This document shows, one piece after another, positions 16,800 through 64,000 of a stretch of DNA of 64,000 nucleotides; positions within the stretch are counted from its first letter, which is position 1; the number at the start of each line of letters is the position of its first letter. The translations under genes were made by a program, and so were the position numbers. Under the pieces are notes generated by a model that did not search any database, was not told where the DNA came from, and was given only the letters and a program-made list of their open reading frames with translations. The DNA comes from Felis catus. Its lineage: Eukaryota. Location: contig NC_058376.1 in NCBI RefSeq assembly GCF_018350175.1, positions 806,001 to 870,000 on the forward strand. Reading direction: 5' to 3'.

Positions 16800-17030
16800 T
16801 TTCTTTTCTTCTTTTTTTAAAATTTAAATTCAAGTTAGTTAACATACAGTGTAGTTTTGGATTTGGGAGTAGAACGAAGTGATTCATCTCTTACATATGA
16901 CACCCAGTGCTCATCCTGAAAAGTGTCCTTCTTAATGCCCCTCACCCATTGAGCCCATCTTCCCACCCATCTCCCCTCCAGCAACCTTCTGTTCGTTCTC
17001 TGCAGTTAAGAGTCTCTTATGATTTGTCTC
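16800..17030 (-). mobile_element. Carnivore L1 3' end, left half of a split element
   Basis: T-rich tail at about 16800-16820, then CAAGTTAGTTAACATACAGTG...CACCCAGTGCTCATC...AGAGTCTCTTATGATTTGTCTC, stopping abruptly at the LTR at 17031. Confidence 0.85.
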
Positions 17031-17622
17031 TGAAACATGGTGCTGTCGAAAAAAACCACCAGACGCCGAATAGAAGCGAGGCAAGATTTTATTCACGGCC
17101 GGGCCAAACCTGATCTCCTGATCGTAAGGAGAAAAGTACAGAGAATGGCCCCGAACAAAGGTAGCAGTGAGCTTATATGGATTTTAGCAAGTCAGAATAC
17201 GTCATTATTTGGTTAACCAATTACAATCTACAGCCTTTCACGGTAGCCAGTTATATCGTGACACACAGACGTCAGTTTCGGTGGGAACCTATCAATTTAA
17301 AGTTCTTTGTCCTAAGAGGGTTTAAAATGACCAATCATAGTTAGACACCTAAGATGCCGTGGGGCAGCGAGTACGTGCCTTTTACATGTTGGTCTTGCCT
17401 AGGCCAGACCTTGGTAGAGGGGCTGGGGGAGCGTTTTGCATCCTAAGTGATCTATTCAGCAAGCAGGCGAGGTCCCAGAAGCAAGATAGGGAGGTTAGGA
17501 ACTTCCGATAACCCTAATAGGGAACTACAGAAGCCTTTTATCTCAATTATTCATGAAAGGTGACTTTAAGCCGAACTTATATACAATAAGCTTTCTGAGG
17601 TCTTATAAACTGACCTATTACA
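17031..17622 (-). mobile_element. ERV LTR (592 bp) at the outer end of palindrome arm A; no adjacent PBS or PPT
   Basis: Reverse complement of 31765-32356, with TG...CA termini. Flanked by L1 instead of viral internal sequence. Confidence 0.9.
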
Positions 17623-19739
17623 ACATCACCTCGGCCATCTGAGGACCCCAGGCTATGGAACCGTGGTCCGGAGAGATTGCGAGCAGAGCTGGTCGGAATG
17701 GGGTGCGGCAAAGCACAGAGGCAGGTTTCCAGAAAGCTCTCCAGGGTCCTCGGCATCCTGCCGCTTTTGAATCAAAGCCCTGATCTTTAAAATGCCAGCG
17801 ACGTCACAACGTGGGCCAGAAACACAAACATCTCTGGGCGTCCACCACCACCTGAAATATTGTCCATTTCTTGTAACTTGAGGTGGCTGGAAAGAATCAG
17901 GGGCGAGGGCTCCAAGAGGGTGGCTCCTGGCCCAGACTTTGTGTTTGGGGGGTAAACGCCATGCAGACAAACCTTGGCTGAGGAGGGGACAGGTATGGGG
18001 ACCCCGTTGCAGGCACTGCTGTCCCGGTGATGCCGCCTCAGGGCGCTCGAGTCCACCTGCCCCTGGGGGAGCACCTGCGACCCTCCGCTCTGCCTGAGGG
18101 CTCTGTCCTGCCCCACGGGCACCTCCTCTCCTGCCAGCCGGGGCCAGCCTGCCACCCGGGAGCGCGGATACCCCGACGGCCCTGGGGACAGAGCCGGTCC
18201 GGGTACGACACCGTCTCCCAGTTGGCCTGAGCGCCAGGCCGCCACGGTGCTCCCCCCTCCTCCTCCGGGCTCCCTGTACTCGTCATCCTGCGGGCTCCGT
18301 GGGCCCAAGTCTTCCTCTGATCAGGGACCACCCCGTGTCCAGTCTCCACACGCTGGGACTTGGGGCAGGTCGTCTGGACCTTCCGGACTCGTGCTTCCTT
18401 GCAGGGACATGTGCAGAGGCCTCCCTCCCAGACTCGCCAGAGGGGACCCAGCACAGGAAGATTCAGACGCCGTAAAGGAAGAGGCCACGTGGGGGACCCC
18501 GTCGGGTCGCGCTCACCGATGAGGTCCCGGTGTTCGGCACACGGCAGGGACCTGAGATGGCCGGCTGAATTAGGGAAGGAGGGAGGGAAGGTGGGAGTGA
18601 AACCACAGAAGCCGGGTCCACACACCAGGTCGGGTCAGAGGTCAGGTCAGAGGGCGTCACAGCTCGGGCCCTGGAAGGGGGCACGGGACACGTCCTTCTG
18701 TCCCTCCAGCGCTGACCTTCCTTCACGTGGGACCTGCTGACGTCCTGGATCGTCTCCACCTCCTCCGCAAACAACGCTGAGTGTTCCCGGAAGGGGGACG
18801 GCAGGCAGGGGCCGAGGAGGGGCTTCCGGAATCCTGTGCCCTGGGGGACTCTGGGACAGCCTTCCAGGTGGCCCCTTGTGTCCTCCAGGCACCAGGCCAC
18901 GATTCCACCTCATCTGTCGGGGAATGCGACAAGCCATCTAGAAGGCCCGTTTCGTCCCCGTGTCACAGATGGGGACACCGAGGCTAATAGCACAGCCTGG
19001 GTCACTAGTAAGACGAGCTAGGTCAGGAAGCCCATGTCCTTGACTTTGGATTGTCCTACCCGCAGGCCTGCGTCTTGGCGTCCTGGGGCTCGGGGTCCCT
19101 CTTCCTGGGGAACCCCACCACCCGCCGAAGGCCCGCCCCCCCTGAACTCAGGGGAGCAGAGCTGACCAACCTGCCTGGGGCCGGGCATGGGGACCGGGGA
19201 AGGGCCGACCCCAGGCTCTGTGGGCTCTCCCAGTCCTGGGCCAGCCGGTCCCCTGCAGGACGAGGACTTCTCGCTGGGGACCTGCTGGGGCCTCTGCTGC
19301 CTCACGTTGTCACCTGGGCTGCCGGTCCCCAGACCAGAAACCTGCCGGTCTGAAGGTGCCCAGCGCTGCCTCCCTCGGGTTTCACTTGCCCGAGTCCCTC
19401 CCCGGGACGCCCCGCATCTCTGACGCCGGCTCCCATGGACTGGGACGGGTCTGGTCTCCATCCCGGGGAACGCACGGGCTTTGGAGCGTTATTTGGCCCA
19501 GGGGCCTGTGAACCTTTCTGGCCCTGGGTCGTGAGGGATGCTCTCCCCTCTGCGGTGTGACCGTCCGGCCTTCTGCGTCTCCCGGCTTCTGTCTGGGCCA
19601 CGGGGGGACCAGCCGTGTCCTGGCTGGCGTCAGGCTGTGGTGTCACAGCACAAACGGGGGTCTCCACCCCGAGACCGTGCCCATTGTCACCGAAGGGGCC
19701 TCTTTTTTCCCACCTAATCTTTAATCCATTGTGATTTCA

Positions 19740-20070
19740 ACATCAAAGGAGAAACAGTCTATTTCAAGCGACCACAGAGTACGAAAATGAATCTGTCCCG
19801 TCTGAAAAGTCGGTGCAGACCCGAAGGTATCTCTTGAGAGATTCCACTTGTAGGAAACCTCCAGAGTAAGTAACGGAACACGGAGAGAAAGCGGACTGGG
19901 GGTTCCCAGGGCCTGGCGGGGGCACGAATGGGGAGGGCGGGCTCCGGGTACACGGTGTCCCTCGGGGACTGAGATACTCTGCACCAATATTCTGTGGCGT
20001 GGTTCACAGCGTCGTGAGTGTACCCAGCGCGCAGGAATTGCACAACGTAAAGTAAATAAAAATTTTACTG
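19740..20070 (+). mobile_element. Ancient L1M 3'-end relic inside the duplicated unit (copies near 29317-29647 and 58273-58603)
   Basis: GATTCCACTTGTAGGAAACCTCCAGAGTAAG...GGGGGTTCCCAGGGCCTGG...GGGTACACGGTGTCCCTCGGGGACTGAGA...GAATTGCACAACGTAAA follows the L1MB/MC 3' pattern with GC-shifted substitutions. Confidence 0.65.
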
Positions 20071-20269
20071 AGGATTAATATGGATTATAAACCAACAGTG
20101 AAGAAATAAAGTCACAGCTAAAAAGAAGAGGAGAGAAAGGATAAGGGAGAAGAGGAAGAGACATTGTGGTAGGGTGTCAGGGTCGGGGATTGGAACAATT
20201 AGAAATAAAACAAACATCCCGTGTAGGCCCTCAGGCCCTTGATCAGTGGCTGGCATCCATGTGGGAGCA

Positions 20270-20420
20270 AGGGCGGTGGCAGGGGCAGGGAGAAGGGCGG
20301 TGGCAGGGGCGGGGGCAGGGGCAGGGAGAAGAGAGGTGGCAGGGGCGGGGAGAAGGGCGGTGGCAGGAACGGTGTTGGGAGCAGAAGCAGGAACAGTGGA
20401 AGCAGCAGGAGCAGAAGCAG
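20270..20420 (+). repeat. Low-complexity GGGCGGTGGCAGGGGCAG / GCAGGAGCAGAA tandem repeat (copies near 28967-29117 and 58803-58953)
   Basis: Visible short imperfect tandem units. Confidence 0.75.
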
Positions 20421-21446
20421 GACCCAGCTGACTCTGCCCAGGTGCCCGCTGTCCCCGCACAGGTCCCAGGTCACCTGCCGGCTGCCGGGCCCCTGCAGGA
20501 GTCGCCCCAGACGCCACCCCCGCCTCCAGAGCCGCCGAGGCCCCCGAGGCTGTTGGGTCGGGCTCTGGAGCCGCACCGGCTTCTGCTCCTGCCCCGGACT
20601 CTTGAGAAGGAAACAGAGTGATGGTTGCAGCGGCTCCAAGGGCTCAGGGTGACAGGAGAGAAGGTCCCCCCGCGCCGGCCTCTCCAGGGGCCTTGCAGAC
20701 ACACAACACACCCCAGGGCCTCCCGAGAAGCCGCGGCCAGGAACCCACACCAGGACCTCTGGCCCCCTGCGGCCCGCAGCCCCGGGGGCTCTCAGTCTCT
20801 GCTCCTGGCCCCACACCAGCCCCCGGGGGCTCCTCCCTGGGTGGCCCAGCACCGCCCGGGGCCCCATGCACCCCATCCCCCACCCCCAGCCTTCTCACCC
20901 TCGGGCTCGGGCTCTGGGGGCTCCGGGTCCTGGTCCCAGGACCGCTGAGCCAGGACCCTGTGGAGGGGCCCGGGCGGTGAGGGAGGCCCTCCCAGGCCAT
21001 CTCCAGGCCCTGCTTCCGGAGACCTCCGTGCGGCCACTCTCTCCCCGGGTCCAGGGTGGCCCTCCTGGGCGACGGGGCACACGCACACCTCTGTAGGGCA
21101 GGTGAATCGGGATCCCGACAGTCGCCTCCCGATTTCATCCGTTGATTTCTGTAAAGACAGTGACCCGCGGCCGGCCCGGAGGCATCACAGCCCCGCCCGG
21201 CCATCCTCAGTGTCCTTCCGCCCTCTCCCCCTGCGGCTCCCAGATCCGACACAGACCTGAGTGCGCACAGCCCTGCGCCCGGGACACAGTGACATCCACC
21301 TGCAGGCTCGGGATGAATCTTGGGGACAAGAGGGCCACCCCAGCACACTCTGTCCCTCCCAGCCAGCCTTGACCTGGAGTGTGAGCATGGCCTGCCCACC
21401 AGGCATCTGACCCCTTCATCAGCCTGCACCTGCTCACGTGGGCCCT

Positions 21447-21448
<2 letters not shown>

Positions 21449-21480
<32 letters not shown>
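21449..21480 (+). repeat. (AC)16 microsatellite (copies at 27907-27938 and about 59982-60013)
   Basis: Direct count; same length in all three copies. Confidence 0.9.
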
Positions 21481-21482
<2 letters not shown>

Positions 21483-23337
21483 GAGGGGCCGTGGGGCCGC
21501 ACAAGTCAGATCAGAGCGGTGTCGGGCTGGACCGACTGTCTCTGGGGCTCCCTGGGTTACCTTTGGCTCCCTGCGAGCTAGAGACCTGAGGCGTCCTGTG
21601 CACGACCTGACCCACTGTCTCCGGGGTCGGGGAGCGTCGCAGCCACGGGCTCCCCTGAGCCAGCAGCCGCGGGACACGGGCACACAACAGGAGAACATGT
21701 TCGTCAGGCGAAGGTGTCCCAACGAATGAGCCCAGTCGGGCGCTGTCTCCACAATGTGGGTGCCTGGTGACCCGGGTTCTGACTTCACTTGGGCTTTGTG
21801 ACCAGAGAGGTGAGGTCACTGCCAGGTCACTGGGCTTTGTGACCAGAGAGGTGGGTCCCCTTACCCATCTTCCTCCTCCTACAAGAGCCCCTCCCAGGCT
21901 GCGGAGGGCTCCCCTCCACCCCATGCCCTGTCCCTACAGTGACACCAACACAGCCCAGCCACATCCCCGCGAGGCCTGGTGCAGCCGGTGTGGCAGCTCT
22001 GGGGACACAGAGCTGGGTTCAGACCTGGGTTTTCCTCCTGACCAGTGCCGGGACCCCGCACAGACCCTGTGCCTCCCGGGGCCCCCCGGTCTCCCCGTCT
22101 GCACAGTGGGGTCCTTCTGGAATCCACTTCTAGGGACACCATCAGGGAGACACCTGTAGACTCGTCCCGTGCCTGCTACCCCATGAGGCTCGTGGGCACA
22201 CGTGGCCGTGGAAAGATGAGGAAGGGGTGGGCCTGGCACGGAACACACTCACGCGGGCCTGGGTCTGCTCCGGGTCCAGGCACAGCCACCCCTCCTGCCT
22301 GGGTCCCGGGCCCGGGGGAAGGTGGAGGTGAGCTCGTTCAGACCCTGTGCCCACCCGACACGCCCCTCCAGGGGCTCCATCACATTTGGGCCCGGGTCCC
22401 AGCGCCTGGGCTGTGGCTCCCAGCCTTCCCGAATCCTGGTCACACATCCCTGTGTCACCCCCTCCCCTTCCGGGTGGACGGCCCGTGTGACCGCGTTCTA
22501 AGGGCTAGAAGACGATGACGGGCTGTCACTTCCAGGCCGATTCATGGAATTTCTGCTTTCCTCTCTCCGGGGTCCATTCTCTGTGTCTGCCTCGGACTCG
22601 GTCTGTCTCTGTGTGTCTCACAGGAGCAGGGCCTGTGGGCTCCAGGGTCCAGGTGACGACCCTCAGAAGCCTCCCTTGTGGCCCGTGTCCCTCCCCCGGC
22701 CCGGTGCTCAGCTCCCTCACGAGGCCTCCTCACCCCAGGCAGGGCACTGCCTGGGGAACCACTTCCTAATGAGGACCCGAGGCTCCAACAAGGAGGGTCT
22801 TCACCTCGGTCCCCACACCAGGGTCCACTGCTCGGCCACGTGCTGCAAACCCAGGACCTCGGTCCTCCAAGCCCCCAGGCTGCCCTCTGCTCAGAAGGAC
22901 CTTGAGGGAGTAGGAAGCATTTTCCCAGGAGGGGAGAACAGAGGGTCAGGGATGAAGATCCCGGGACACAGACTCGTCTATGAGCCTGTGGGACCCTGGG
23001 GACACTGTCTACGCAGCCCAATTTACGGAGGAGGACGCTGAGTCCTTCTGTGCCCTAGCCCCGTCCACACTTCCTACTTCCAGGTGCCCAGTGTGGTGGA
23101 CACAGGACCCCAGACCCCGTCCTCCCCTAGTTCCCGCCAATCCCCCCAGACATCTTGGGGACCCCCCGGCCCTCAGCCGGCACATCTCCCCTCCCCATGC
23201 TGTGGGTCCCGGGCTATTGCCAGGAATCCTGATGTCCCTGCCCATGGCCCCACTGCCTCCAGCCTTTCTCTTCTTTCCCCCACGTTACCCACCCCCTCCC
23301 AGTGTGGACTCCCCTCTGACCCCCAGCGGGGCAGTCC

Positions 23338-23340
<3 letters not shown>

Positions 23341-23374
<34 letters not shown>
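23341..23374 (+). repeat. (TG)17 microsatellite (mirror at 26013-26046; (TG)13 at 61874-61899)
   Basis: Direct count. Confidence 0.9.
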
Positions 23375-23375
<1 letters not shown>

Positions 23376-25657
23376 ACCCGCCTGTCTGGAGATGCCCAGT
23401 GGTCACAGCCTCACACAGACGGGGTGGATAGGGACCCCCGAGCATCTCAGGGGGTCTCGTTCCCAGGGAGAACCCCACGGGGGGATAGAGGCTGGCCTAG
23501 GACTGGAGACCAGCTCTGCTCCTCGGACGCCGCACACCTCACTTGTCCTGGGCCAGTCCTTGCCTCTCCTGACCTCAGTGTCCCCACTGTCCCTGAGGGT
23601 CAGACGGGGAAGTGCATCAGCGTGGCCTTGACCCAGGCTGTCCTCCAGGGGTAGGTGGAGGGGAGGTGCCCCGGCTACACAGGCCTCCCTCCCCAGGGCC
23701 GGCCAGGTCTGTGTCGTGGCCACGTGTGCAGACAGAAGGGGAATGAAATGGATGATGCAGAGTGATCACTACCACGGCAGGAACAAGGCGGGTACCGGTG
23801 ACTGATGGAGCACCCATACAGAGCCCGGATCGCAAACTCAGTGGGGAAGAGGAGAGGGGACACCAGTGAGGTACCCCCCCACAAAGCCATCCAGCGTTTC
23901 CATCCAGCCACCAGGGCTTGGCATGGCCCCAGGAGCAGTGGCCAACCAGACTCCTGACACAGGTCACTGTGGCCTCTTTCTCAGCAGTGGGGATCCAGGG
24001 GCCGGGAAACCCAGGGTGCAAGGGTGCTTGGGGCTACCTCCTCCCTTGGAGGAAAGAGAACAATAGAGATGTTCTCTGGGGACTCCCCAGGGCAGGAAAA
24101 ATGGGAGGAGCCCTCCCCCAGCCCAGACAACTCTTCCCCATGACTATTTCCCTGCTGGTGGTGGGAGGCGTTGAGGGAGTGTGGTACTGGCTTTAAACAG
24201 TGACTCTACACTTGAATGTTAGGTTCAAATTCTGCTTCTACTAGAACCTGAGCTTTGTGGCTTGGATCTTTCACTTGCCAGGCTGAGGGGATACACATGC
24301 TCTCAAGGACTCTCAAACGGAGATCTCTCGCAGGGTCCTGAACCTACTGGACCTGGGGAAGGGGTGGACCGGTCCCCTCCCTGGTCCTGATGGAGACCTT
24401 TCCTCCCAAAGACAGGTTCGTTCCTGGGCGTGATCCTGGGCCAGGGCTGGAGACAGCCCCTCACTCCCCAGGGGCTCTGGGGGCCGAGGGGGCTTGGATA
24501 CAAGCACAGCTCACTGCACCTCTCCCCCCAACCAGTGTGCACTGCCTGGGCAGGGACCCCCCGAGCCAAGGGCAAGCCTTCCCCTTCCGTCTGACCACAC
24601 ATTCTTCCCAGAGCTTGACGATGGCCTGTTCTTCTTGGCCATGGGGTATTGCTGGCCGACCAGGAGGGAGTCCAGCTGGTAGGGCAGGTGTAGCTACCGG
24701 ACACAGGGACACCTGTGAGCTACCGGGAGCCACATTCTGGTCTCTGTCCCCGGGCCTGCCCGGCAGCTGGGATCCAGGTGCCCTAGGGGTCAGCAGACAA
24801 CAGGGTCTGGGCTGAGCAGGAGGCCATGACCTCAAGGAGACTCCACTGGGCCCTCTCCTGGCTCCTGCCTAGTCTCACCTGTCCTCCCTGAGGGGCTCCA
24901 GGGCCCGGATCCAGGCCCCTTACGGCTGCTGGGGCTCCAGCCTGGAAAGATGTATAGCCTCTGGGGCAGCTGGACTTGTTGGGGCTGGAGGGAGGGCCGG
25001 CCACCGACAGGGCCTCGGCTGGGGAGGATGCGGGCCTCGTGGGGGTGAGGATGGGGCCGGGACCCGGTGCTGGGTCACGGCTCATGTATACAAAGGGCTG
25101 AAATCACTGAGTGCCCGGGGGGCGCCGAGTTAAAGTAGCCCCCTGACGCTTGGTCATCCTGGAGGTGGCCCCAGGCCTCCCCAGGCCGCTTCCCACCCTC
25201 TGACTCTGCCCAGGGCTGCAGCCAGGCCCAGGCTGGACCTCTGTCCAAGGTCCTGCCAGGAAGACAAGGCAGAAGGAGGAAAGGAGAAGGGGGAGGGGCG
25301 GACCGACTTCTCCCTGCCCTGAGTTGGCCTCCCTGCTGCCTGCAGGAGCCCTGGCCCAGCCATGCCCCAGGGTCCATGCACCTGGACCCTGGGGTAGAGT
25401 CTGCGGTCCAGGCCAGCTGGGTGGGGGTGGGTGTATTCACTGGCCTTCGTGTCCCCAGATGTCCAACCCACCTGGCCTTGCACCCTGAGGTGTGCCTGGC
25501 TGGGGCAGGCATGGTTCTGGGGCGCAGGAGAGGTTCGGGTCCCAGAGCCGTTGGTGGAGGCGGGAACATAGGGGACCAGCCAGGTGGGGAGCGATTGGAT
25601 TCATGCACGTCAGCGTTGCATCTGGATCATCTACAGGTGCTGAGTGCAGGTCCCTGG

Positions 25658-26011
25658 GCACACCTGGCCACGACACAGACCTGGCCGGCCCTGGGGAGGG
25701 AGGCCTGTGTAGCCGGGGCACCTCCCCTCCACCTACCCCTGGAGGACAGCCTGGGTCAAGGTCACGCTGATGCACTTCCCCGTCTGACCCTCAGGGACAG
25801 TGGGGACACTGAGGTCAGGAGAGGCAAGGACTGGCCCAGGACAAGTGAGGTGTGCGGCGTCCGAGGAGCAGAGCTGGTCTCCAGTCCTAGGCCAGCCTCT
25901 ATCCCCCCGTGGGGTTCTCCCTGGGAACGAGACCCCCTGAGATGCTCGGGGGTCCCTATCCACCCCGTCTGTGTGAGGCTGTGACCACTGGGCATCTCCA
26001 GACAGGCGGGT

Positions 26012-26049
<38 letters not shown>

Positions 26050-27904: not shown

Positions 27905-27940
<36 letters not shown>

Positions 27941-32356: not shown

Positions 32357-32358
32357 TT

Positions 32359-32376
32359 TGGAGGTCCCACCGAGAT
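32359..32376 (+). other. Primer-binding site, tRNA-Gln
   Basis: TGGAGGTCCCACCGAGAT, 2 nt after the LTR CA end; matches the known Gln-type PBS of endogenous gammaretroviruses. Confidence 0.9.
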
Positions 32377-32761
32377 TCTGTGACCACCCGAAATTCAGAG
32401 GCTGAAGCGGAACAGCTAAGGGAGAGCTCCCGAGGGACGTTCCTGGGCCCCGCTTTCCGTTCTCAGACCTGGCTTAAGTAAGGTACGTGAGGCGGTGCCT
32501 ATTTTCTATTTTCAGTTTTCTGTTTTCTGTTTTCTGTTACTGGTTGGATCTGACTCTAGGAGGGAAGGCTGGATGCGGGTTAACTTCCCCCTAGCTGGTG
32601 TCTGGTGGAGATGTCCCCAGCACCGCCTGGGTCTCCGGACCGTCTGGGTTGGGTTGATCACCCCAACCGTTTGTTCTATGTTCAGTGCTCTGTGTGCCCT
32701 GTTAAACATTTCCTGTTAACCTATCATTATCTCTGGTGTGACCCACTGTTTAGCCTCTGTC

Positions 32762-46259: not shown

Positions 46260-46475
46260 TTTCTTTAATTTTTAACTATTTGAGAGAGAGAGACAGAGAG
46301 ACAGAGAGAGTGGGGGAGGGGCAGAGAGGCAGAGAGACAGAGAGGGAGAGACAGAGTCTCAAGCAGGCTCCACGCTGCCAGTGCAGAGCCCAATGTGGGG
46401 CTTGAACTCAGGAACTGTGAGATCCTGACCTGAGGCAAAGTCGGACACTTAAATGACTGAGCCACTCAGGTGCCC
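46260..46475 (-). mobile_element. SINEC_Fc-type carnivore SINE
   Basis: GA-rich tract, then GACCTGAGGCAAAGTCGGACACTTAAATGACTGAGCCACTCAGGTGCCC. Confidence 0.9.
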
Positions 46476-53483: not shown

Positions 53484-54880
53484 AGGGCCAGGGACCCGGG
53501 TGGAGGCAGATGCCCCTCGGGGTGAACCTGGGGTCCCCCAGTGCTCTTCCTGGTTTTCAGTGAATGCTTCGGCCTCCAGCGGGGACAGTGCCCACTGTGT
53601 CCGGACCAGGCCGGCCAGGCACTGGCAACCTGCTCAGCCACCTGGGTGCTGGGTGCTGGGTGCTGGATGCTGGGTGCTGGGCAGGTGCTCCCAGGGACTC
53701 TTGCTGTGTTTCCAAATAAAGCGATTCCACAAACCGCTAGAGTTGCCTCTCACTCGTGTGCTGGGCTGGGCTCGGTGTCGAGGGCGGACAGAGATGGACA
53801 GGGCGCCGCTCTCGTGGGGCGCGGGCCGCACAGGGAGAGGATAGGGTGCGGTGGGCACACCCCGGCTGAACCACACGGCACAGAGAGCCAGCTCGGGGGC
53901 GAGAGGGCCGGCCTGCACTTGTGTCCCTCGGCAGAGTCCCTCTGGGTGAGGGGACCCGCGCACACGGGTCTCGGCCGGGGAGTGGGGGCTGGGCCGGAGG
54001 CAGCCGCTCCCCGGGGAGGGGTCACACAGCCCTGGGCCGATGGGAGGGTCGTCTGCCCGAGTGAGAGCAGGCCTGCGGTTCGAGTTCGGACAGGGTGCTG
54101 GGCCGACGAGGTGGGCACTGGTGCCCACCGGGGTGCCAGGCTGGGGCACCTCGGTGTCCGGGGCAGGGGCACCTCGGTGTCCGGGGCAGGGCTCTGGGGC
54201 AAGGGCAGGGGCCCAGGATTGCAGAGGCCTGGGCTGTGGGGCCTCCTGTGGTCTGGTGGGGCCCTGCCTGAGGTCCTGGCAGAAGCTGGGGTGGGGGCTG
54301 CCCATCCCTCACGGCGAGGGGCGGTGCATACCAGGAAGGGGGGCAGGCGGGCACATACAGGAGAGTTGCATGCACATGCACACACACCCCATGTGCCTGT
54401 GCACACACACCGGCTGCCCCCTCTGTCAACACCTGCTCAGGACAGATCGCCCGTCAGCACCTGCTCAGGGCGACCCTGCGGTCGGGTCCTGCTTCTCACA
54501 CTCGGATAACCTTATGAAGTGACTCATAGTGACACCAGCTGGCTGTTGTCTCTCTTCCGGGGGTGGGGAGCTACTGTGAGAGGCCCAGGGCTCCCACTGT
54601 GAGGAGGGACGGCTCCAGGGGACACGTGGTGACCTGAGGTCGGGGGGGGGGAGTGACCTCGGGAACACGATGGCTTTGTCTTCAGGGGCCTCCCGGGCAG
54701 GTGGCACCGACCAGGCTGAGCACCTGGGCCGGCCCTCTGTGCCCGGGGGAGCCCCCCGGCCTCCCCATCGGCCCACCCCAGGCCGGCTCAAGGCTCCGGG
54801 TTGGTTGGACGGCCACGGCAGGGTCGGTGGGTGGGGAGATTTAAACTCAGTGCCCTGGTGGCCGAAGAGGGAGGCTGGAG

Positions 54881-54991
54881 ATGGGACCGGGGAGGCTGGT
54901 GTCCACGCTGGTCCTGGCGTTCGTGCTGGCCATGGGGTCCCGGCCACAGGAACAGCTGCCCAGGGAGGCCCACAGCCTCAACTGGAACAAG
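54881..54991 (+). pseudogene. LCN10: Lipocalin-10 exon 1 only; gene truncated in intron 1
   Basis: [37 protein letters not shown] then GT, versus human LCN10 ...PRESHALNWNK. TTTAAA at 54840-54845. I found no FSGFWY-type exon 2 downstream, and duplicon sequence starts at 55599. Confidence 0.85.
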
Positions 54992-55598
54992 GTAGAGCCG
55001 TAGGCCTGCTGTCCCCCGAGCCAGGCACCCAGGCCGTGGGGGCCAGGGATCATCCATTTAGGGATCGCTCCCTAAAAATCTCCCAAGGGCCTTCCCGGGG
55101 CCCTGGGCAGGGCCCCGAGGCTGGCAGGAGTCTCCGGCACAGGCCCCTGCCGGCCCAGTGGGACTGCTCCCCCGGCCTCTCCCAGAGCAGCTGCCGGCCA
55201 TGGGGGTGGGTAAGGCGCAGGGCCCCAGGCAGGTGCACCCAGAGATGCTAGGTGGGCAGAGGTGGAATCAGCAGGACGTGTTCTGGAACGGGGAGATGGC
55301 TGGCAGGTGGAACCCTCCAGCGGGGGTGGCTGTGGGCACAGGCTGAGCGGGCCGTGGCGGTGTCTGGGACGGTGGGTTTGCGGCAGGAAATCGGAGGGAT
55401 GGGGCCCCCCCGGAGGCCCTGCACGGGAAGGAAGTTACAGCACACGGTTCCCAGTGCCCAGCCCCCGCACCCACAGACAGTCTGGCGTCTGCCCACCAGG
55501 GCCCCTAACCAGGGGCGTGCAGGTCCGGGGGGCTGGATGCGGGCTGGGTGTCTGGGAGGCATCCCTTGTCCAGTGGGTTCCGGGAACCTGGGAAGGAG

Positions 55599-56731
55599 CC
55601 CCTGAGTTCAGGGGGGGGGCCTTCGGCGGGTGGTGGGGTTCCCCAGGAAGAGGGACCCCGAGCCCCAGGACGCCAAGACGCAGGCCTGCGGGTAGGACAA
55701 TCCAAAGTCAAGGACATGGGCTTCCTGACCTAGCTCGTCTTACTAGTGACCCAGGCTGTGCTATTAGCCTCGGTGTCCCCATCTGTGACACGGGGACGAA
55801 ACGGGCCTTCTAGATGGCTTGTCGCATTCCCCGACAGATGAGGTGGAATCGTGGCCTGGTGCCTGGAGGACACAAAGGGCCACCTGGAAGGCTGTCCCAG
55901 AGTCCCCCAGGGCACAGGATTCCGGAAGCCCCTCCTCGGCCCCTGCCTGACGTCCCCCTTCCGGGAACACTCAGCGTTGTTTGCAGAGGAGGTGGAGACG
56001 ATCCAGGACGTCAGCAGGTCCCACGTGAAGGAAGGTCAGCGCTGGAGGGACAGAAGGATGTGTCCCGTGCCCCCTTCCAGGGCCCGAGCTGTGACGCCCT
56101 CTGACCTGACCTCTGACCCGACCTGGTGTGTGGACCCGGCTTCTGTGGTTTCACTCCCTCCTTCCCTCCCTCCTTCCCTAATTCAGCCGGCCATCTCAGG
56201 TCCCTGCCGTGTGCCGAACACCGGGACCTCATCGGTGAGCGCGACCCGACGGGGTCCCCCACGTGGCCTCTTCCTTTGCGGCGTCTGAATCTTCCTGTGC
56301 TGGGTCCCCTCTGGCGAGTCTGGGAGGGAGGCCTCTGCACATGTCCCTGCAAGGAAGCACGAGTCCGGAAGGTCCAGACGACCTGCCCCAAGTCCCAGCG
56401 TGTGGAGACTGGACACGGGGTGGTCCCTGATCAGAGGAAGACTTGGGCCCACGGAGCCCGCAGGATGACGAGTACAGGGAGCCCGGAGGAGGAGGGGGGA
56501 GCACCGTGGCGGCCTGGCGCTCAGGCCAACTGGGAGACGGTGTCGTACCCGGACCGGCTCTGTCCCCAGGGCCGTCGGGGTATCCGCGCTCCCGGGTGGC
56601 AGGCTGGCCCCGGCTGGCAGGAGAGGAGGTGCCCGTGGGGCAGGACAGAGCCCTCAGGCAGAGCGGAGGGTCGCAGGTGCTCCCCCAGGGGCAGGTGGAC
56701 TCGAGCGCCCTGAGGCGGCATCACCGGGACA
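55599..56731 (+). repeat. Third copy of a 1.13-kb arm segment; direct repeat of 30233-31367, inverted relative to about 18020-19154
   Basis: Offset about 25365 bp; about 7 differences seen by eye. Confidence 0.95.
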
Positions 56732-57029
56732 ACTGTGCCGTGCCAGCCCCACTTCCCCAAATTCAAGACCAAGACCCTATCACCCTGTCCCACCCCCGAG
56801 AGCAGAAACCGCTTCTGTCCTAGTTCCTTTGTGGATGCTTCCATGCCTGCCCTCAGCACCCTGTCTGCTCCCCGCTGTGTGCACACACCTGGATCACGAG
56901 AGTGAGCCCCGGACCCCACCCAGGAGGTGGTACGGCCCCTCACCCACCCCAGCAAGGGAGAGCGCCGTCCCCATGGCCCTACTCCCCCTAAGAAGACACG
57001 TAAGCCATATTCACCAAGGTTTTTAACCA

Positions 57030-57065
<36 letters not shown>

Positions 57066-57838
57066 CGAAGGATGGGGGCCTTGGGGACCCGCACACGAAT
57101 GTCTCCTGTGCTTTTGTGGGTTTGCTCTGGTTCTCCGGATCCTCCTCCTGGCTCCCTTGAAGTTGTCAGGCCTCTGCCCGAGTCCCTGGGTCACCCACCT
57201 ACCCTCTCCTGTTAGGAAGACGTCCAAATGCACGCCCTGCGTTTCCTCTCATGTTCCTCTCGCCTCCTAGACTTCGGTCATCAGATTTGGGAGTCGTGAA
57301 CAGCCTTTCTGTCTTCCCTCACCTGTCCTTCCACCCAGCTCTTCCCAGGCCGGCCCCGAGGCTGTCCTCGGGTTGGATTCATCTCCTCCTGGGAGGTGGG
57401 GGTCGGGTGGACAGAGGGCAGACGGTGCCGGTGGGGGCAGGAGAGGCCGTGGCCCACAGGCCGAGGGCGGGCTTGTCTGCCAGGGCCCCCGGGCGGGGTG
57501 AGCCCCGCCTGCCTCTCCTCTTTCTTACCGGGAGGCATCGTTGTCCTGAACGGGCACCAGGGAACCTGAACGAAGAGACCACTTTGCTTTGAGACAAGGG
57601 GCGGTGTGGCAAGGGCTGCAGGGGACGTTGGCCTTGGATTTGGGAAAGAGAGGCCGGCCACGCACTGCTGTCGCGTTCATGTCCTCTCTGCCCACCTGAG
57701 TGCACCTGCAGCCGGAGGGGCTGGTTCCCGGCAGGCTGGCAGCGTCCCCTGGAGTCCCCGGTCCCTCCTCTCTGCCTGAGGACGGTCCCCCGGAGACGGG
57801 AGCCCCACACCTGTCTCTGGAGACCTCTGCTTTGTCAA

Positions 57839-59979
57839 GTTGTCACCTGGGCTGCCGGTCCCCAGACCAGAAACCTGCCGGTCTGAAGGTGCCCAGCGCT
57901 GCCTCCCTCGGGTTTCACTTGCCCGAGTCCCTCCCCGGGATGCCCCGCATCTCTGACGCCGGCTCCCATGGACCGGGACGGGTCTGGTCTCCATCCCGGG
58001 GAACGCACGGGCTTTGGAGCGTTATTTGGCCCAGGGGCCTGTGAACCTTTCTGGCCCTGGGTCGTGAGGGATGCTCTCCCCTCTGCGGTGTGACCGTCCG
58101 GCCTTCTGCGTCTCCCGGCTTCTGTCTGGGCCACGGGGGGACCAGCCGTGTCCTGGCTGGCGTCAGGCTGTGGTGTCACAGCACAAACGGGGGTCTCCAC
58201 CCCGAGACCGTGCCCATTGTCACCGAAGGGGCCTCTTTTTTCCCACCTAATCTTTAATCCATTGTGATTTCAACATCAAAGGAGAAACAGTCTATTTCAA
58301 GCGACCACAGAGTACGAAAATGAATCTGTCCCGTCTGAAAAGTCGGTGCAGACCCGAAGGTATCTCTTGAGAGATTCCACTTGTAGGAAACCTCCAGAGT
58401 AAGTAACGGAACACGGAGAGAAAGCGGACTGGGGGTTCCCAGGGCCTGGCGGGGGCACGAATGGGGAGGGCGGGCTCCGGGTACACGGTGTCCCTCGGGG
58501 ACTGAGATACTCTGCACCAATATTCTGTGGCGTGGTTCACAGCGTCGTGAGTGTACCCAGCGCGCAGGAATTGCACAACGTAAAGTAAATAAAAATTTTA
58601 CTGAGGATTAATATGGATTATAAACCAACAGTGAAGAAATAAAGTCACAGCTAAAAAGAAGAGGAGAGAAAGGATAAGGGAGAAGAGGAAGAGACATTGT
58701 GGTAGGGTGTCAGGGTCGGGGATTGGAACAATTAGAAATAAAACAAACATCCCGTGTAGGCCCTCAGGCCCTTGATCAGTGGCTGGCATCCATGTGGGAG
58801 CAAGGGCGGTGGCAGGGGCAGGGAGAAGGGCGGTGGCAGGGGCGGGGGCAGGGGCAGGGAGAAGAGAGGTGGCAGGGGCGGGGAGAAGGGCGGTGGCAGG
58901 AACGGTGTTGGGAGCAGAAGCAGGAACAGTGGAAGCAGCAGGAGCAGAAGCAGGACCCAGCTGACTCTGCCCAGGTGCCCGCTGTCCCCGCACAGGTCCC
59001 AGGTCACCTGCCGGCTGCCGGGCCCCTGCAGGAGTCGCCCCAGGCGCCACCCCCGCCTCCAGAGCCGCCGAGGCCCCCGAGGCTGTTGGCTCGGGCTCTG
59101 GAGCCGCACCGGCTTCTGCTCCTGCCCCGGACTCTTGAGAAGGAAACAGAGTGATGGTTGCAGCGGCTCCAAGGGCTCAGGGTGACAGGAGAGAAGGTCC
59201 CCCCGCGCCGGCCTCTCCAGGGGCCTTGCAGACACACAACACACCCCAGGGCCTCCCGAGAAGCCGCGGCCAGGAACCCACACCAGGACCTCTGCCCCCC
59301 TGCGGCCCGCAGCCCCGGGGGCTCTCAGTCTCTGCTCCTGGCCCCACACCAGCCCCCGGGGGCTCCTCCCTGGGTGGCCCAGCACCGCCCGGGGCCCCAT
59401 GCACCCCATCCCCCACCCCCAGCCTTCTCACCCTCGGGCTCGGGCTCTGGGGGCTCCGGGTCCTGGTCCCAGGACCGCTGAGCCAGGACCCTGTGGAGGG
59501 GCCCGGGCGGTGAGGGAGGCCCTCCCAGGCCATCTCCAGGCCCTGCTTCCGGAGACCTCCGTGCGGCCACTCTCTCCCCGGGTCCAGGGTGGCCCTCCTG
59601 GGCGACGGGGCACACGCACACCTCTGTAGGGCAGGTGAATCGGGATCCCGACAGTCGCCTCCCGATTTCATCCGTTGATTTCTGTAAAGACAGTGACCCG
59701 CGGCCGGCCCGGAGGCATCACAGCCCCGCCCGGCCATCCTCAGTGTCCTTCCGCCCTCTCCCCCTGCGGCTCCCAGATCCGACACAGACCTGAGTGCGCA
59801 CAGCCCTGCGCCCGGGACACAGTGACATCCACCTGCAGGCTCGGGATGAATCTTGGGGACAAGAGGGCCACCCCAGCACACTCTGTCCCTCCCAGCCAGC
59901 CTTGACCTGGAGTGTGAGCATGGCCTGCCCACCAGGCATCTGACCCCTTCATCAGCCTGCACCTGCTCACGTGGGCCCT

Positions 59980-60015
<36 letters not shown>

Positions 60016-63000
60016 GAGGGGCCGTGGGGCCGCACAAGTCAGATCAGAGCGGTGTCGGGCTGGACCGACTGTCTCTGGGGCTCCCTGGGTTACCTTTGGC
60101 TCCCTGCGAGCTAGAGACCTGAGGCGTCCTGTGCACGACCTGACCCACTGTCTCCGGGGTCGGGGAGCGTCGCAGCCACGGGCTCCCCTGAGCCAGCAGC
60201 CGCGGGACACGGGCACACAACAGGAGAACATGTTCGTCAGGCGAAGGTGTCCCAACGAATGAGCCCAGTCGGGCGCTGTCTCCACAATGTGGGTGCCTGG
60301 TGACCCGGGTTCTGACTTCACTTGGGCTTTGTGACCAGAGAGGTGAGGTCACTGCCAGGTCACTGGGCTTTGTGACCAGAGAGGTGGGTCCCCTTACCCG
60401 TCTTCCTCCTCCTACAAGAGCCCCTCCCAGGCTGCGGAGGGCTCCCCTCCACCCCATGCCCTGTCCCTACAGTGACACCAACACAGCCCAGCCACATCCC
60501 CGCGAGGCCTGGTGCAGCCGGTGTGGCAGCTCTGGGGACACAGAGCTGGGTTCAGACCTGGGTTTTCCTCCTGACCAGTGCCGGGACCCCGCACAGACCC
60601 TGTGCCTCCCGGCGCCCCCCGGTCTCCCCGTCTGCACAGTGGGGTCCTTCTGGAATCCACTTCTAGGGACACCATCAGGGAGACACCTGTAGACTCGTCC
60701 CGTGCCTGCTACCCCATGAGGCTCGTGGGCACACGTGGCCGTGGAAAGATGAGGAAGGGGTGGGCCTGGCACGGAACACACTCACGCGGGCCTGGGTCTG
60801 CTCCGGGTCCAGGCACAGCCACCCCTCCTGCCTGGGTCCCGGGCCCGGGGGAAGGTGGAGGTGAGCTCGTTCAGACCCTGTGCCCACCCGACACGCCCCT
60901 CCAGGGGCTCCATCACATTTGGGCCCGGGTCCCAGCGCCTGGGCTGTGGCTCCCAGCCTTCCCGAATCCTGGTCACACATCCCTGTGTCACCCCCTCCCC
61001 TTCCGGGTGGACGGCCCGTGTGACCGCGTTCTAAGGGCTAGAAGACGATGACGGGCTGTCACTTCCAGGCCGATTCATGGAATTTCTGCTTTCCTCTCTC
61101 CGGGGTCCATTCTCTGTGTCTGCCTCGGACTCGGTCTGTCTCTGTGTGTCTCACAGGAGCAGGGCCTGTGGGCTCCAGGGTCCAGGTGACGACCCTCAGA
61201 AGCCTCCCTTGTGGCCCGTGTCCCTCCCCCGGCCCGGTGCTCAGCTCCCTCACGAGGCCTCCTCACCCCAGGCAGGGCACTGCCTGGGGAACCACTTCCT
61301 AATGAGGACCCGAGGCTCCAACAAGGAGGGTCTTCACCTCGGTCCCCACACCAGGGTCCACTGCTCGGCCACGTGCTGCAAACCCAGGACCTCGGTCCTC
61401 CAAGCCCCCAGGCTGCCCTCTGCTCAGAAGGACCTTGAGGGAGTAGGAAGCATTTTCCCAGGAGGGGAGAACAGAGGGTCAGGGATGAAGATCCCGGGAC
61501 ACAGACTCGTCTATGAGCCTGTGGGACCCTGGGGACACTGTCTACGCAGCCCAATTTACGGAGGAGGACGCTGAGTCCTTCTGTGCCCTAGCCCCGTCCA
61601 CACTTCCTACTTCCAGGTGCCCAGTGTGGTGGACACAGGACCCCAGACCCCGTCCTCCCCTAGTTCCCGCCAATCCCCCCAGACATCTTGGGGACCCCCC
61701 GGCCCTCAGCCGGCACATCTCCCCTCCCCATGCTGTGGGTCCCGGGCTATTGCCAGGAATCCTGATGTCCCTGCCCATGGCCCCACTGCCTCCAGCCTTT
61801 CTCTTCTTTCCCCCACGTTACCCACCCCCTCCCAGTGTGGACTCCCCTCTGACCCCCAGCGGGGCAGTCCGAGTGTGTGTGTGTGTGTGTGTGTGTGTGC
61901 ACCCGCCTGTCTGGAGATGCCCAGTGGTCACAGCCTCACACAGACGGGGTGGATAGGGACCCCCGAGCATCTCAGAGGGTCTCGTTCCCAGGGAGAACCC
62001 CACGGGGGGATAGAGGCTGGCCTAGGACTGGAGACCAGCCCTGCTCCTCAGACGCCGCACACCTCACTTGTCCTGGGCCAGTCCTTGCCTCTCCTGACCT
62101 CAGTGTCCCCACTGTCCCTGAGGGTCAGACGGGGAAGTGCATCAGCGTGGCCTTGACCCAGGCTGTCCTCCAGGGGTAGGTGGAGGGGAGGTGCCCCGGC
62201 TACACAGGCCTCCCTCCCCAGGGCCGGCCAGGTCTGTGTCGTGGCCAGGTGTGCCCAGGCACCTGCACTCAGCACCTGTAGATGATCCAGAGGTGACACT
62301 GATGTGCATGAATCCAATTGCTCCCCACCTGGCTGGTCCCCCATGTTTCCACCTCCGCCAACGGTTCTGGGACCCGAACCTCTCCTGCACCCCAGAACCA
62401 TGTCTGCCCCAGCCAGGCACACCTCAGGGTGCAAGGCCAGGTGGGTTGGACATCTGGGGACACGAAGGCCAGTGAATACACCCACCCCCACCCAGCTGGC
62501 CTGGACCGCAGACTCTACCCCAGGGTCCAGGTGCATGGACCCTGGGGCATGGCTGGGCCAGGGCTCCTGCAGGCAGCAGTGGAGGTCAACTCAGGGCAGG
62601 GAGAAGTCGGTCCGCCCCTTCCCCTTCTCCTTTCCTCCTTCTGCCTTGTCTTCCTGGCAGGACCTTGGACAGAGGTCCAGCCTGGGCCTGGCTGCAGCCC
62701 TGGGCAGAGTCAGAGGGTGGGAAGCGGCCTGGGGAGGCCTGGGGCCACCTCCAGGATGACCAAGCGTCAGGGGGCTACTTTAACTCGGCGCCCCCCGGGC
62801 ACTCAGTGATTTCAGCCCTTTGTATACATGAGCCGTGACCCCGGGACCGAGTCCCGGCCCCATCCTCACCCCCACGAGGCCCGCATCCTCCCCAGCCGAG
62901 GCCCTGTCGGTGGCCGGCCCTCCCTCCAGCCCCAACAAGTCCAGCTGCCCCAGAGGCTATACATCTTTCCAGGCTGGAGCCCCAGCAGCCGTAAGGGGCC

Positions 63001-63369
63001 TGGATCCGGGCCCTGGAGCCCCTCAGGGAGGACAGGTGAGACTAGGCAGGAGCCAGGAGAGGGCCCAGTGGAGTCTCCTTGAGGTCATGGCCTCCTGCTC
63101 AGCCCAGACCCTGTTGTCTGCTGACCCCTAGGGCACCTGGATCCCAGCTGCCGGGCAGGCCCGGGGACAGAGACCAGAATGTGGCTCCCGGTAGCTCACA
63201 GGTGTCCCTGTGTCCGGTAGCTACACCTGCCCTACCAGCTGGACTCCCTCCTGGTCGGCCAGCAATACCCCATGGCCAAGAAGAACAGGCCATCGTCAAG
63301 CTCTGAAAGAATGAGTGGCCAGATGGAAGGGGAAGGCTGGCTCTTGGCTCGGGGGGGGGGTTCCTGCCC
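57839..63369 (+). repeat. Third copy of arm plus spacer: direct repeat of 19306-23729, continuing as the reverse complement of spacer 25657 to about 24547
   Basis: Offset 38533, then 38525 after a (TG)4 contraction; matching ORF translations in the track. Confidence 0.95.
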
Positions 63370-63471
63370 GGGCTGGCGAGGGCTCCGGAGGTGGTATTCC
63401 AGCTCTCTGCTGCTCAGCCCTGTACCCCGAGACACCTGCCTCCCTTCTCTGGGTCTCACTCTCCTGCTCTG

Positions 63472-63601
63472 TGAAATGGATGATGCAGAGTGATCGCTCC
63501 CATGGCAGGAACAAGGCAGGTACCGGGGACTGATGGAGCACCCATTCAGAGCCCGGATCGCAGAACGCAGTGGGGAAGGGGAGAGGGAATGCCAGTGAGG
63601 T
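63472..63601 (+). repeat. Diverged direct copy of spacer segment 23744-23872
   Basis: TGAAATGGATGATGCAGAGTGATC...CCAGTGAGGT; about 12 differences in 130 nt. Confidence 0.85.
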
Positions 63602-63621
63602 CTTATAATTTACCTATTCCA
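63596..63621 (-). mobile_element. 5'-terminal 26 nt of the same LTR family
   Basis: TGAGGTCTTATAATTTACCTATTCCA versus TGAGGTCTTATAAACTGACCTATTACA at 17596-17622. Confidence 0.8.
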
Positions 63622-64000
63622 GTCTTCCTCCCTGTTTTTGTATTATTTTTCCTTCCCTTCCCCTATGTTCATCTGTTTTGTTTCTCAAATTCCACGTATG
63701 AGTTAAATCATTTGCTATTTGTCTTTCTCTGACTGACTTATTTTGCTTAATGTAATGCACTCTAGTTTTATACACATTGTTGCAAATGGCAGGATTTCAT
63801 TCTTTTTGATCTCCGAGTAATACTCCATTGTAAATAACCACATCTTCTTTATCCATTCATCCGTCGATGGACATTTGGGCTCTTTCCATCCTTTGGCTAT
63901 TGTCGACGGTGCTGCTATAAACATTGGGTGCACGTGGCCCTTCAAACAGCACACCTGTATCCTCTGGATAAATTCCTAGTAGTGCGATTCCTGGGTTGTA
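63622..64000 (-). mobile_element. Carnivore L1, right half of the split element (continues off the window)
   Basis: GTCTT then CCTCCCTGTTTTTGTATTATTTTTCCTTCCCTTCCCCTATGTTCATCTG...; continues the L1 3'UTR where 17030 stops. Confidence 0.88.

What the first reader, a model, noticed from the sequence alone, without database searches (positions are those of the whole stretch)
17026..63626. 46.6-kb cargo sits inside the footprint of one LTR insertion in a split L1
Seen: the L1 at 16800-17030 ends ...TATGATTTGTCTC and the L1 at 63622 starts GTCTT CCTCCCTGTTTTTG. Collapsing the 5-bp duplication (GTCTC at 17026-17030, GTCTT at 63622-63626, one mismatch) gives continuous carnivore L1 3'UTR (GATTTGTCTCCCTCCCTGTTTTT). 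Just inside each duplication is an end of the same minus-strand LTR: the U5 end at 17031 and the first 26 nt of U3 at 63596-63621. Inference: an LTR or provirus integrated upstream of COL6A1 and later served as the landing pad for a palindrome, a provirus and three lipocalin genes. This would be LTR-targeted duplicative transposition of a gene cluster.
Basis: partly seen in the sequence, partly recalled or inferred. Interest (0 to 1): 0.92.

Follow-up and report, generated by a model that had tools for sequence, protein, structure and literature searches.

The report
Retrovirus-bounded relocation of cat lipocalin genes
Before lions and house cats split, about 47,000 bases holding two sperm-maturation genes were copied from one chromosome into the landing site of an old retrovirus on another, and the new copies appear to have become the working ones while the originals decayed.

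Summary
Real and old. The L1 halves are contiguous with a 5-nt overlap (16 of 19 paralogues). Both outer ends are retroviral TG...CA ends, and this LTR family makes 4-5-bp target duplications. The cargo is an intron-bearing copy of LCN8-LCN6-LCN10 (exon 1 only) from contig C31, 4-6% diverged, plus three copies of an amplified ~8-kb C31 unit. Public proteins show the same pattern in lion, leopard cat and Iriomote cat, with broken parent-type models in lynx and tiger. LCN8 mostly follows it, and has since gained a stop in the domestic cat. So this is a felid-wide gene relocation, older than about 11.5 My. Corrections: the 'cargo provirus' is most simply the landing provirus's own interior, flipped; 'later' is not shown, because cargo and ERV burst have the same age. 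Best mechanism: template-switching repair of breaks at both U3 starts, then LTR-driven inverted duplication and gene conversion. Junction reads were not tested. The scan's index held no look-alike. Verdict: new variant of a known kind.

The parts
16800..17030 (-). 3' end (poly-A tail and 3'UTR) of an old L1, left half
17026..17030 (.). left copy of the 5-bp target duplication (GTCTC)
17031..17622 (-). complete 592-bp LTR of an ERV1/gamma-like family; U5 end joined to the L1; inferred to be the original 3' LTR
17031..23729 (.). left arm of the palindrome (6699 bp; 6 mismatches to the right arm, 5 of them within 105 nt of an arm end)
17623..24491 (.). copy 1 of an ~8-kb unit amplified on C31 (90.7-95.1 Mb) and on C32, C33, C36; outer end maps to C31:91,916,798, in the loop of a perfect 8-bp hairpin
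24492..24543 (.). 52-nt filler at the turn-around junction; no local template of 9 nt or more
24544..31764 (.). copy 2 of the unit, inverted
25658..32356 (.). right arm of the palindrome, ending exactly at the U5 end of the plus-strand LTR
31765..32356 (+). complete LTR (original 5' LTR, now inverted relative to the footprint)
32357..37093 (+). defective proviral interior: primer-binding site (tRNA-Gln type, label recalled), gag/pol/env remnants with stops and internal deletions, polypurine tract
37094..37097 (+). U3 nt 1-4 of the missing 3' LTR, overlapping the donor start by 3-4 nt (donor C31:91,792,288)
37095..55600 (+). collinear copy of C31:91,792,288-91,811,419 with introns, 4.1-5.7% substitutions
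38582..41269 (+). LCN8 copy, 7 exons, premature stop at codon 143 (40705-40707)
49010..53563 (+). LCN6 copy, 7 exons, all GT-AG, intact 180-aa frame; the only intact LCN6 found in this genome
54881..54991 (+). LCN10 exon 1 only (name recalled; the donor's next exons match the LCN10 half of read-through model P0001); the rest of the gene is absent here
55599..63600 (.). copy 3 of the amplified unit, partly rearranged; ends at a C31:91,820,235-type position
63596..63621 (-). 26-nt stub of U3 nt 1-27, TG end joined to the L1; 5-nt overlap (63596-63600) with donor DNA
63622..63626 (.). right copy of the 5-bp target duplication (GTCTT)
63622..64000 (-). right half of the same L1, continuing beyond the window

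Best explanation
One gamma-like provirus integrated normally, on the minus strand, into an old L1 about 10 kb upstream of COL6A1 in the ancestor of living cats (shown: TG...CA ends, 5-bp duplication, contiguous L1). Within the same era it broke at the start of U3 in both LTRs: at the polypurine-tract/U3 boundary of the 3' LTR and at nt 27 of the 5' LTR (positions shown; that they were breaks is inferred). Repair by template switching flipped the proviral interior and copied DNA from the lipocalin cluster of another chromosome into both gaps, using 1-5-nt homologies (donor and homologies shown; mechanism inferred). The two LTRs, now inverted, let one prime on the other and copy its flank, which made the 6.7-kb palindrome; arm-to-arm gene conversion has kept it near-identical (inferred from where the mismatches sit). 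The new LCN6 and LCN8 copies stayed coding while the parents took frameshifts before the felid radiation (shown for LCN6 at DNA level here and in predicted proteins of other felids; expression not shown). The outcome is a relocation of two epididymal lipocalin genes.
For: Footprint. One provirus: the U3 variant is in 0 of 17 sister LTRs, is found genome-wide only in the two LTRs here and is shared by the stub; no family sequence in the fetched donor regions. The interior runs from U3 nt 1 of one LTR to U3 nt 4 of the other, inverted relative to the outer ends. The palindrome's outer edge is exactly the U5 end; 3 of 6 arm mismatches lie in the outer 38 nt and 5 of 6 within 105 nt of an arm end (post hoc P about 4e-6 and 2e-7). 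Age: cargo 4.1-5.7% (non-CpG 2.3-3.7%) against 1.8-5.3% (1.5-3.3%) for sister LTR pairs. Relocation: the window LCN6 is intact and the donor stops at codon 82. At 9 of 11 amino-acid differences the window carries the caniform residue. Intact LCN6 lies on 157.7-159.9-Mb contigs in lion, Iriomote cat, leopard cat and domestic cat. The exon-4 frameshift signature is in 4 of 4 parent-type models (domestic cat, Iberian lynx, Iriomote cat, tiger) and 0 of 7 window-type models. LCN8 is on both contig sizes in lion and cheetah.
Against: The order of events cannot be read from one end product, and the model needs at least four non-homologous junctions plus a conversion step. Why both breaks fall within 27 nt of the U3 start is unexplained; a plus-strand nick at the polypurine tract is my guess. 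The host|TG junction at 31764/31765 looks like an integrase product, which rivals 1 and 2 explain more directly. The unconverted LTR bits (U5 tip and stub) differ at about 8 of 65 positions, more than sister LTR pairs do. The unit copies are 8-11% from every fetched C31 copy, about twice the lipocalin part. Exceptions to clean relocation: the cheetah's 93-Mb LCN8 model looks window-type, and the lion's 158-Mb LCN6 has two parent-type residues in exon 2. The protein tree has no strongly supported fork (parent clade 90/88). Chromosome placement in other species rests on contig length only.
Confidence: 0.55

Rival explanations
1. Two proviruses (closest to the first reader's view). A solo LTR or provirus sat in the L1, and a sister provirus sat in the lipocalin cluster. 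A break in the resident U3 invaded the donor LTR by homology, copied its flank, folded back through the donor provirus, switched to the LCN8-LCN6 region and rejoined the 27-nt stub. The donor provirus was later lost or never fixed.
For: The host|TG junction at 31764/31765 has the form of a normal integration into donor DNA. The left LTR has its U3 side in donor DNA and its U5 side in the L1, as a recombinant would. Tip and stub are more diverged than sister LTR pairs. The order unit-provirus-LCN8-LCN6-LCN10-unit is permuted relative to the donor.
Against: No trace of this ERV family in the fetched donor regions. The private U3 variant would have to be carried by two integrants and by no other copy found. 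The switch exactly at the tract/U3 boundary is still a coincidence.
Confidence: 0.22
2. One-step capture by integrase. An abortive, one-ended integration in the lipocalin cluster let host polymerases append chromosomal DNA to viral ends, as described for aberrant HIV and ASLV integrations. The chimeric linear molecule still ended in a U3 and a U5 attachment site and was then inserted concertedly into the L1. No cargo-free provirus ever stood here.
For: Both outer ends are exact TG...CA ends with a family-typical 5-bp duplication. Cargo and ERV burst have the same age. The inner junctions are truncated viral ends with short homology to appended DNA from another chromosome, as in PMC5041404 (sections 10 and 12 read), which also reports viral circles with host DNA between the LTRs. 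The donor breakpoint lies in a hairpin loop (background 0.2% of positions, post hoc).
Against: In PMC5041404 the aberrant class has one host-made end and lacks the short duplication; here both outer ends are normal. Appended pieces of tens of kilobases followed by a second, concerted integration are not described in what I read. Same age within a few percent divergence still allows millions of years.
Confidence: 0.2
3. Assembly artefact or a private allele: contigs from the lipocalin cluster were joined into the COL6A1 region through LTR or L1 repeats.
For: The donor region is a hard-to-assemble array with unplaced scaffolds. The arms are 99.9% identical. Reads across the junctions were not tested.
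Against: The cargo is a 4-6% diverged paralogue with its own deletions, not a duplicate of donor sequence. A mis-join would not leave a 5-bp duplication in register in an L1. 14 whole-genome-size runs from 7 studies hold 0.83-0.89 of the sampled words of 15500-18500, against about 0.57 expected without the insert, counting only the paralogues I hold; this shows presence, not adjacency. Assemblies of lion, cheetah, leopard cat and Iriomote cat place the same genes on 156-160-Mb contigs.
Confidence: 0.02

Closest known systems
Aberrant retroviral integrations of HIV-1 and ASLV (PMC5041404; sections 10 and 12 read in full, other passages by search)
   Same: Truncated viral ends joined by short homology to appended host DNA; several templates in a row; inversions; DNA brought in from other chromosomes.
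   Different: There one end is host-made and the short duplication is replaced by large duplications or deletions, in somatic cells under drug or mutation. Here both outer ends and the 5-bp duplication are normal, the cargo is tens of kilobases with whole genes, and it is fixed in a germ line.
Interchromosomal segmental duplication by duplicative transposition with repeat-rich breakpoints (Alu-associated primate duplications, recalled; core duplicons PMC5088589 and PMC7419210, search listing only)
   Same: DNA-level copy with introns, above 90% identity, on another chromosome, tied to a core-like unit that is itself amplified in arrays.
   Different: The acceptor site keeps an exact integrase footprint, and the provirus is rearranged at its two U3 starts.
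HERV-HERV non-allelic homologous recombination (PMC4195946, PMC3292815; search listing only)
   Same: ERV sequence at the breakpoints of a rearrangement between chromosomes.
   Different: Needs long homologous ERVs at both partners; none was found at the donor, and the junction homology is 1-5 nt.
LTR-mediated retroposition / retroviral transduction of host genes (recalled)
   Same: Host genes between LTR ends, inserted with a target duplication.
   Different: RNA-based, so introns are lost and size is bound by packaging. Here all introns are kept and the insert is 46.6 kb.
Translocation through circular intermediates, bovine KIT Cs29/Cs6 alleles (recalled)
   Same: Large donor segment on another chromosome, in permuted order, with microhomology junctions.
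   Different: No retroviral footprint there; here the permutation cannot be tested cleanly because the donor array has since been rearranged.
Palindromes kept by arm-to-arm gene conversion (Y chromosome, recalled); inverted copy-number variants (PMC10766186, search listing only)
   Same: Near-identical inverted arms around a short spacer, mismatches gathered at the edges.
   Different: Autosomal, small, and bounded by an inverted LTR pair.

Membership tests
Concerted retroviral integration (normal provirus) | TG...CA termini joined to the target at both ends | tested here: met
   17031 and 63621
Concerted retroviral integration (normal provirus) | Short target duplication of family-typical length | tested here: met
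   5 bp with one mismatch; sisters 5 bp in 8 of 13, 4 bp in 5 of 13
Concerted retroviral integration (normal provirus) | Two direct LTRs around a co-oriented interior | tested here: not met
   Interior inverted, right LTR reduced to 26 nt
Aberrant one-ended retroviral integration | One end made by integrase, the other by host repair, short duplication lost | tested here: not met
   Both outer ends are normal and the 5-bp duplication is kept
Aberrant one-ended retroviral integration | Truncated viral ends with short homology to appended DNA, also from other chromosomes | tested here: met
   37094-37097 and 63596-63600; donor on C31
Interchromosomal segmental duplication | More than 1 kb, more than 90% identity, on another chromosome | tested here: met
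   18.5 kb at 94-96% substitution identity (90-94% counting gaps), C31 to C18
Interchromosomal segmental duplication | DNA-level copy (introns and intergenic DNA kept) | tested here: met
   All LCN6 and LCN8 introns present
LTR-mediated retroposition / retroviral transduction | Spliced, intron-less cargo within packaging size | tested here: not met
   Introns kept, 46.6 kb
ERV-ERV non-allelic homologous recombination | Homologous ERV at both donor and acceptor breakpoints | tested here: not met
   None in the fetched C31 regions; a lost donor provirus cannot be excluded
Circular-intermediate translocation | Permuted donor order with one closing junction | tested here: inconclusive
   The order is permuted, but the donor array holds many tandem and inverted unit copies
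Gene relocation (duplicate kept, parent lost) | New copy intact, parent disabled | tested here: met
   LCN6 in this genome and in predicted proteins of other felids; LCN8 with exceptions
Gene relocation (duplicate kept, parent lost) | New copy expressed in the ancestral tissue | not tested
   No epididymis RNA was examined
Conversion-maintained palindrome | Arm identity higher than age predicts, mismatches at the edges | tested here: met
   99.91% against 8.5% divergence in an unconverted 129-nt bit; edge clustering
Conversion-maintained palindrome | Same palindrome in related species with species-specific shared changes in both arms | not testable with these tools
   No relative's DNA is held for this genome

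The most novel reading that the evidence does not exclude
A retroviral integrase inserted, in one step, a chimeric DNA of tens of kilobases carrying intron-containing chromosomal genes between a U3 and a U5 attachment site. That would be a germ-line route of gene transposition by an abortive-then-concerted integration, and it moved the working LCN6 and LCN8 genes of all cats to a new chromosome.
Probability: 0.2. Interest if true: 0.87.

Novelty: new variant of a known kind. Interest (0 to 1): 0.66.

Why it matters
Breakpoints of old segmental duplications are usually erased. Here the acceptor site, the donor and all junctions of a fixed event older than 11 My can be read to the base, and every junction to donor DNA sits at the U3 start of one provirus. 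That makes the question of how retroviral integration seeds duplications testable across some 40 cat genomes. It is also a gene relocation with likely consequences. Mouse males lacking Lcn5, Lcn6, Lcn8 and Lcn10 together are subfertile (PMC10506895, abstract read). In cats the working LCN6 now lies beside COL6A1, and the domestic cat seems to have lost LCN8 in both copies. Orthology tables that follow synteny pick the broken parent as 'LCN6'.

Tried and rejected
Read-level test of the junctions: not obtained, so adjacency rests on assemblies and on the footprint. A gene in the ~8-kb unit: Pfam found nothing convincing in 103 frames, but the positive control (an LCN6 exon frame) also scored nothing, so the test is too weak. 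The whole-genome PF00061 search listed no hit in the unit and also missed the window's LCN6. tblastn with the held lipocalins found none, and no clear exon-like conservation peak appeared. Rfam found 0 matches in 16000-64000. A target duplication of the L1 itself: only 8-nt one-mismatch words, rejected as chance. A local template for the two fillers: none convincing. Non-felid feliform LCN6 (hyena, mongoose) as an upper age bound: none among the 120 of 187 listed hits or the 70. Protein tree of LCN6: weak support, used only as a side check. GC-bias test: the window LTR is GC-richer at differing sites than all 17 sisters, but CpG decay in the sisters could give the same, so it is not counted. 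RNA-based transduction rejected (introns kept). Literature: searches listed no paper on this locus or on LCN6/LCN8 relocation in cats (top listings only). The 2023 Nature Genetics single-haplotype cat genome paper is not held; its supplements may list this duplication. Scan index: 8 unrelated notes shown, no look-alike by sequence.
Full report
Setting. The window is G000:C18:806001-870000, 0.8 Mb from the start of a 158.6-Mb contig. Named protein records on contigs of the same lengths as C18 and C31 are from Felis catus. The chromosome names C2 and D4 for these contigs are recalled. COL6A1 lies on the minus strand, with its start codon near 7260.

Observation. The footprint is as described. 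The L1 halves overlap by exactly 5 nt in 16 of 19 paralogous L1 copies. The left end is the U5 CA of a complete 592-bp LTR (17031-17622). The right end is a 26-nt stub of U3 nt 1-27 that matches within 4 edits, against 0 matches in 20 shuffled windows. The family has at least 40 copies at 89% identity or more, two of them in this window, and makes 5-bp duplications in 8 of 13 and 4-bp in 5 of 13 insertions examined (read by eye).

Anatomy. From left to right: LTR(-); copy 1 of an ~8-kb unit; a 52-nt filler; copy 2 inverted; LTR(+), primer site, decayed gag/pol/env and polypurine tract; four bases of the next U3; an 18.5-kb collinear copy of C31:91,792,288-91,811,419; copy 3 of the unit; the U3 stub. 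The unit is amplified at many places on C31 between 90.7 and 95.1 Mb and on C32, C33 and C36. All junctions between viral and donor DNA sit at the U3 start: nt 0 (host|TG, present twice because of the palindrome), nt 4 (3-4-nt homology) and nt 27 (5-nt homology). The donor breakpoint of the first lies in the loop of a perfect 8-bp hairpin (0.2% of positions nearby, post hoc). No unit-LTR junction was found elsewhere among the 40 best matches.

One provirus or two. The two full LTRs and the stub share a U3 variant found in 0 of 17 sister LTRs. A fixed-length pattern with one mismatch found it genome-wide only in the two LTRs here (the stub, one base shorter, cannot match that pattern). The variant bases fall inside the stub's overlap with donor DNA, so the sharing is suggestive, not proof. 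No sequence of the family lies in the fetched donor regions. The simplest reading is that the interior belongs to the landing provirus and was flipped between breaks at the two U3 starts. The palindrome ends exactly at the U5 ends. Three of its 6 mismatches lie in the outer 38 nt, and 5 of 6 within 105 nt of an arm end. A 129-nt piece shared by copies 1 and 3 outside the arms differs by 8.5%. This points to old copies kept alike by conversion, although polishing of an assembly could add to the likeness.

Age. Cargo and donor differ by 4.1-5.7% (2.3-3.7% outside CpG). The LTR pairs of four sister proviruses differ by 1.8, 3.5, 3.7 and 5.3%; a fifth related locus had no matching LTR. The copy is therefore as old as the ERV burst, and no gap between integration and cargo arrival is resolved. 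Window-type LCN6 is annotated on 157.7-159.9-Mb contigs in lion, Iriomote cat, leopard cat and domestic cat, and without a chromosome-size contig in fishing cat and jaguar. LCN8 is on both a 93-94-Mb and a 156-158-Mb contig in lion and cheetah. The lion's two genes on the large contig have consecutive accession numbers. The event thus predates the Panthera-Felinae split, more than 11.5 My ago by a passage in PMC4691742. No non-felid feliform record was seen, so the upper bound is open.

Fate of the genes. The window's LCN6 has 7 exons with GT-AG introns and an open 180-aa frame. The parent has a shifted acceptor in exon 3, a one-base loss in exon 4 and a stop at codon 82. Only these two copies were found. 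Of 11 amino-acid differences, 9 have the caniform residue in the window copy and 2 are ambiguous. The exon-4 frameshift signature appears in 4 of 4 parent-type models (domestic cat, Iberian lynx, Iriomote cat, tiger) and in 0 of 7 window-type models. For LCN8, the parent in this genome lacks the start codon and exon 2 and has an extra base in exon 3. The matching altered motif is in 6 of 14 felid models aligned (two lynxes, leopard, lion, tiger, Geoffroy's cat), a seventh is a truncated Iriomote model, and 7 keep the ancestral-type motif. Six of those 7 are the window type; the seventh is the cheetah's 93-Mb model, an exception. The window's LCN8 has a stop at codon 143 that the fishing cat, lion, jaguar and cheetah models lack. 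LCN10 stayed at the donor. The lion's window-type LCN6 carries two parent-type residues, which hints at occasional conversion between chromosomes.

Is it real? Junction reads were not tested. The cargo is a diverged paralogue with private deletions. Fourteen whole-genome-size runs from 7 studies and two organism labels hold 0.83-0.89 of the words across the left end (about 0.57 expected without the insert, a floor because not all paralogues are held). Four other species place the genes on a contig of the same size. An artefact is very unlikely.

Mechanism. Best (0.55): normal integration, then breaks at both U3 starts repaired by template switching into the lipocalin cluster, with the interior flipped, then an LTR-primed inverted duplication and conversion. 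Rival 1 (0.22): a second provirus at the donor, reached by LTR homology and since lost. Rival 2 (0.2): the chimeric molecule was built first, by host polymerases extending viral ends after an abortive integration, and integrase then inserted it whole. PMC5041404 (sections 10 and 12 read) describes this priming and multi-template copying, insertions from other chromosomes, and viral circles with host DNA between the LTRs. In that class, though, one end is host-made and the short duplication is lost, which is not the case here.

Comparison and verdict. It works like repair-driven duplicative transposition with features of aberrant retroviral integration. It is a member of interchromosomal segmental duplications and of gene relocations. 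It is not a normal provirus, a retroposed copy or a case of ERV-ERV recombination as far as tested. Searches listed no description of this locus, but subscription papers and the supplements of the 2023 cat haplotype paper could not be seen. Both gene copies are already present in automatic annotations. New variant of a known kind; interest 0.66.

Noticed in passing
G000:C31:90.7-95.1 Mb, C32, C33, C36; window 17623-31764 and 55599-63600: An ~8-kb unit of unknown content forms tandem arrays (spacing about 7.8 and 8.5 kb) and dispersed copies near the end of C31 and on unplaced scaffolds; it behaves like a core duplicon or macrosatellite.
   Followed up: partly
G000:C31:91,810,000-91,917,000 (L039-L049): LCN10 with part of the unit is repeated in about five 13-kb tandem copies at 99.3-99.8% identity, plus inverted copies: a recent LCN10 amplification.
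   Followed up: partly
window 40705-40707 and C31:91,793,767-91,794,604: Both LCN8 copies are broken in this genome, so the domestic cat may lack LCN8, while fishing cat, lion and jaguar keep an open window-type frame.
   Followed up: partly
window 39204-39981: This 0.8-kb piece with LCN8 exon 2 is missing from the donor locus, so the copy preserves sequence the parent lost.
   Followed up: yes
P0175 (cheetah, 93-Mb contig) and P0071 (lion, 158-Mb contig): Each carries residues of the other paralogue type, hinting at gene conversion between the two chromosomes or at model errors.
   Followed up: no
L091-L094, L003-L010, L090: One ERV family shows both 4-bp and 5-bp target duplications (5 and 8 of 13); three of the four two-LTR proviruses have 4 bp.
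   Followed up: partly
window 3818-4357: A 23-bp GC-rich minisatellite with higher-order 115- and 184-bp periods inside COL6A1.
   Followed up: no
window 9330-9609 and 50960-51180: Further L1 3'-end fragments, one between COL6A1 and the insertion and one in LCN6 intron 2.
   Followed up: no
window 21790-21855 (and copies 2 and 3): A short local duplication present in the window's unit copies but gapped against the C31 copies, a marker shared by conversion or common origin.
   Followed up: no
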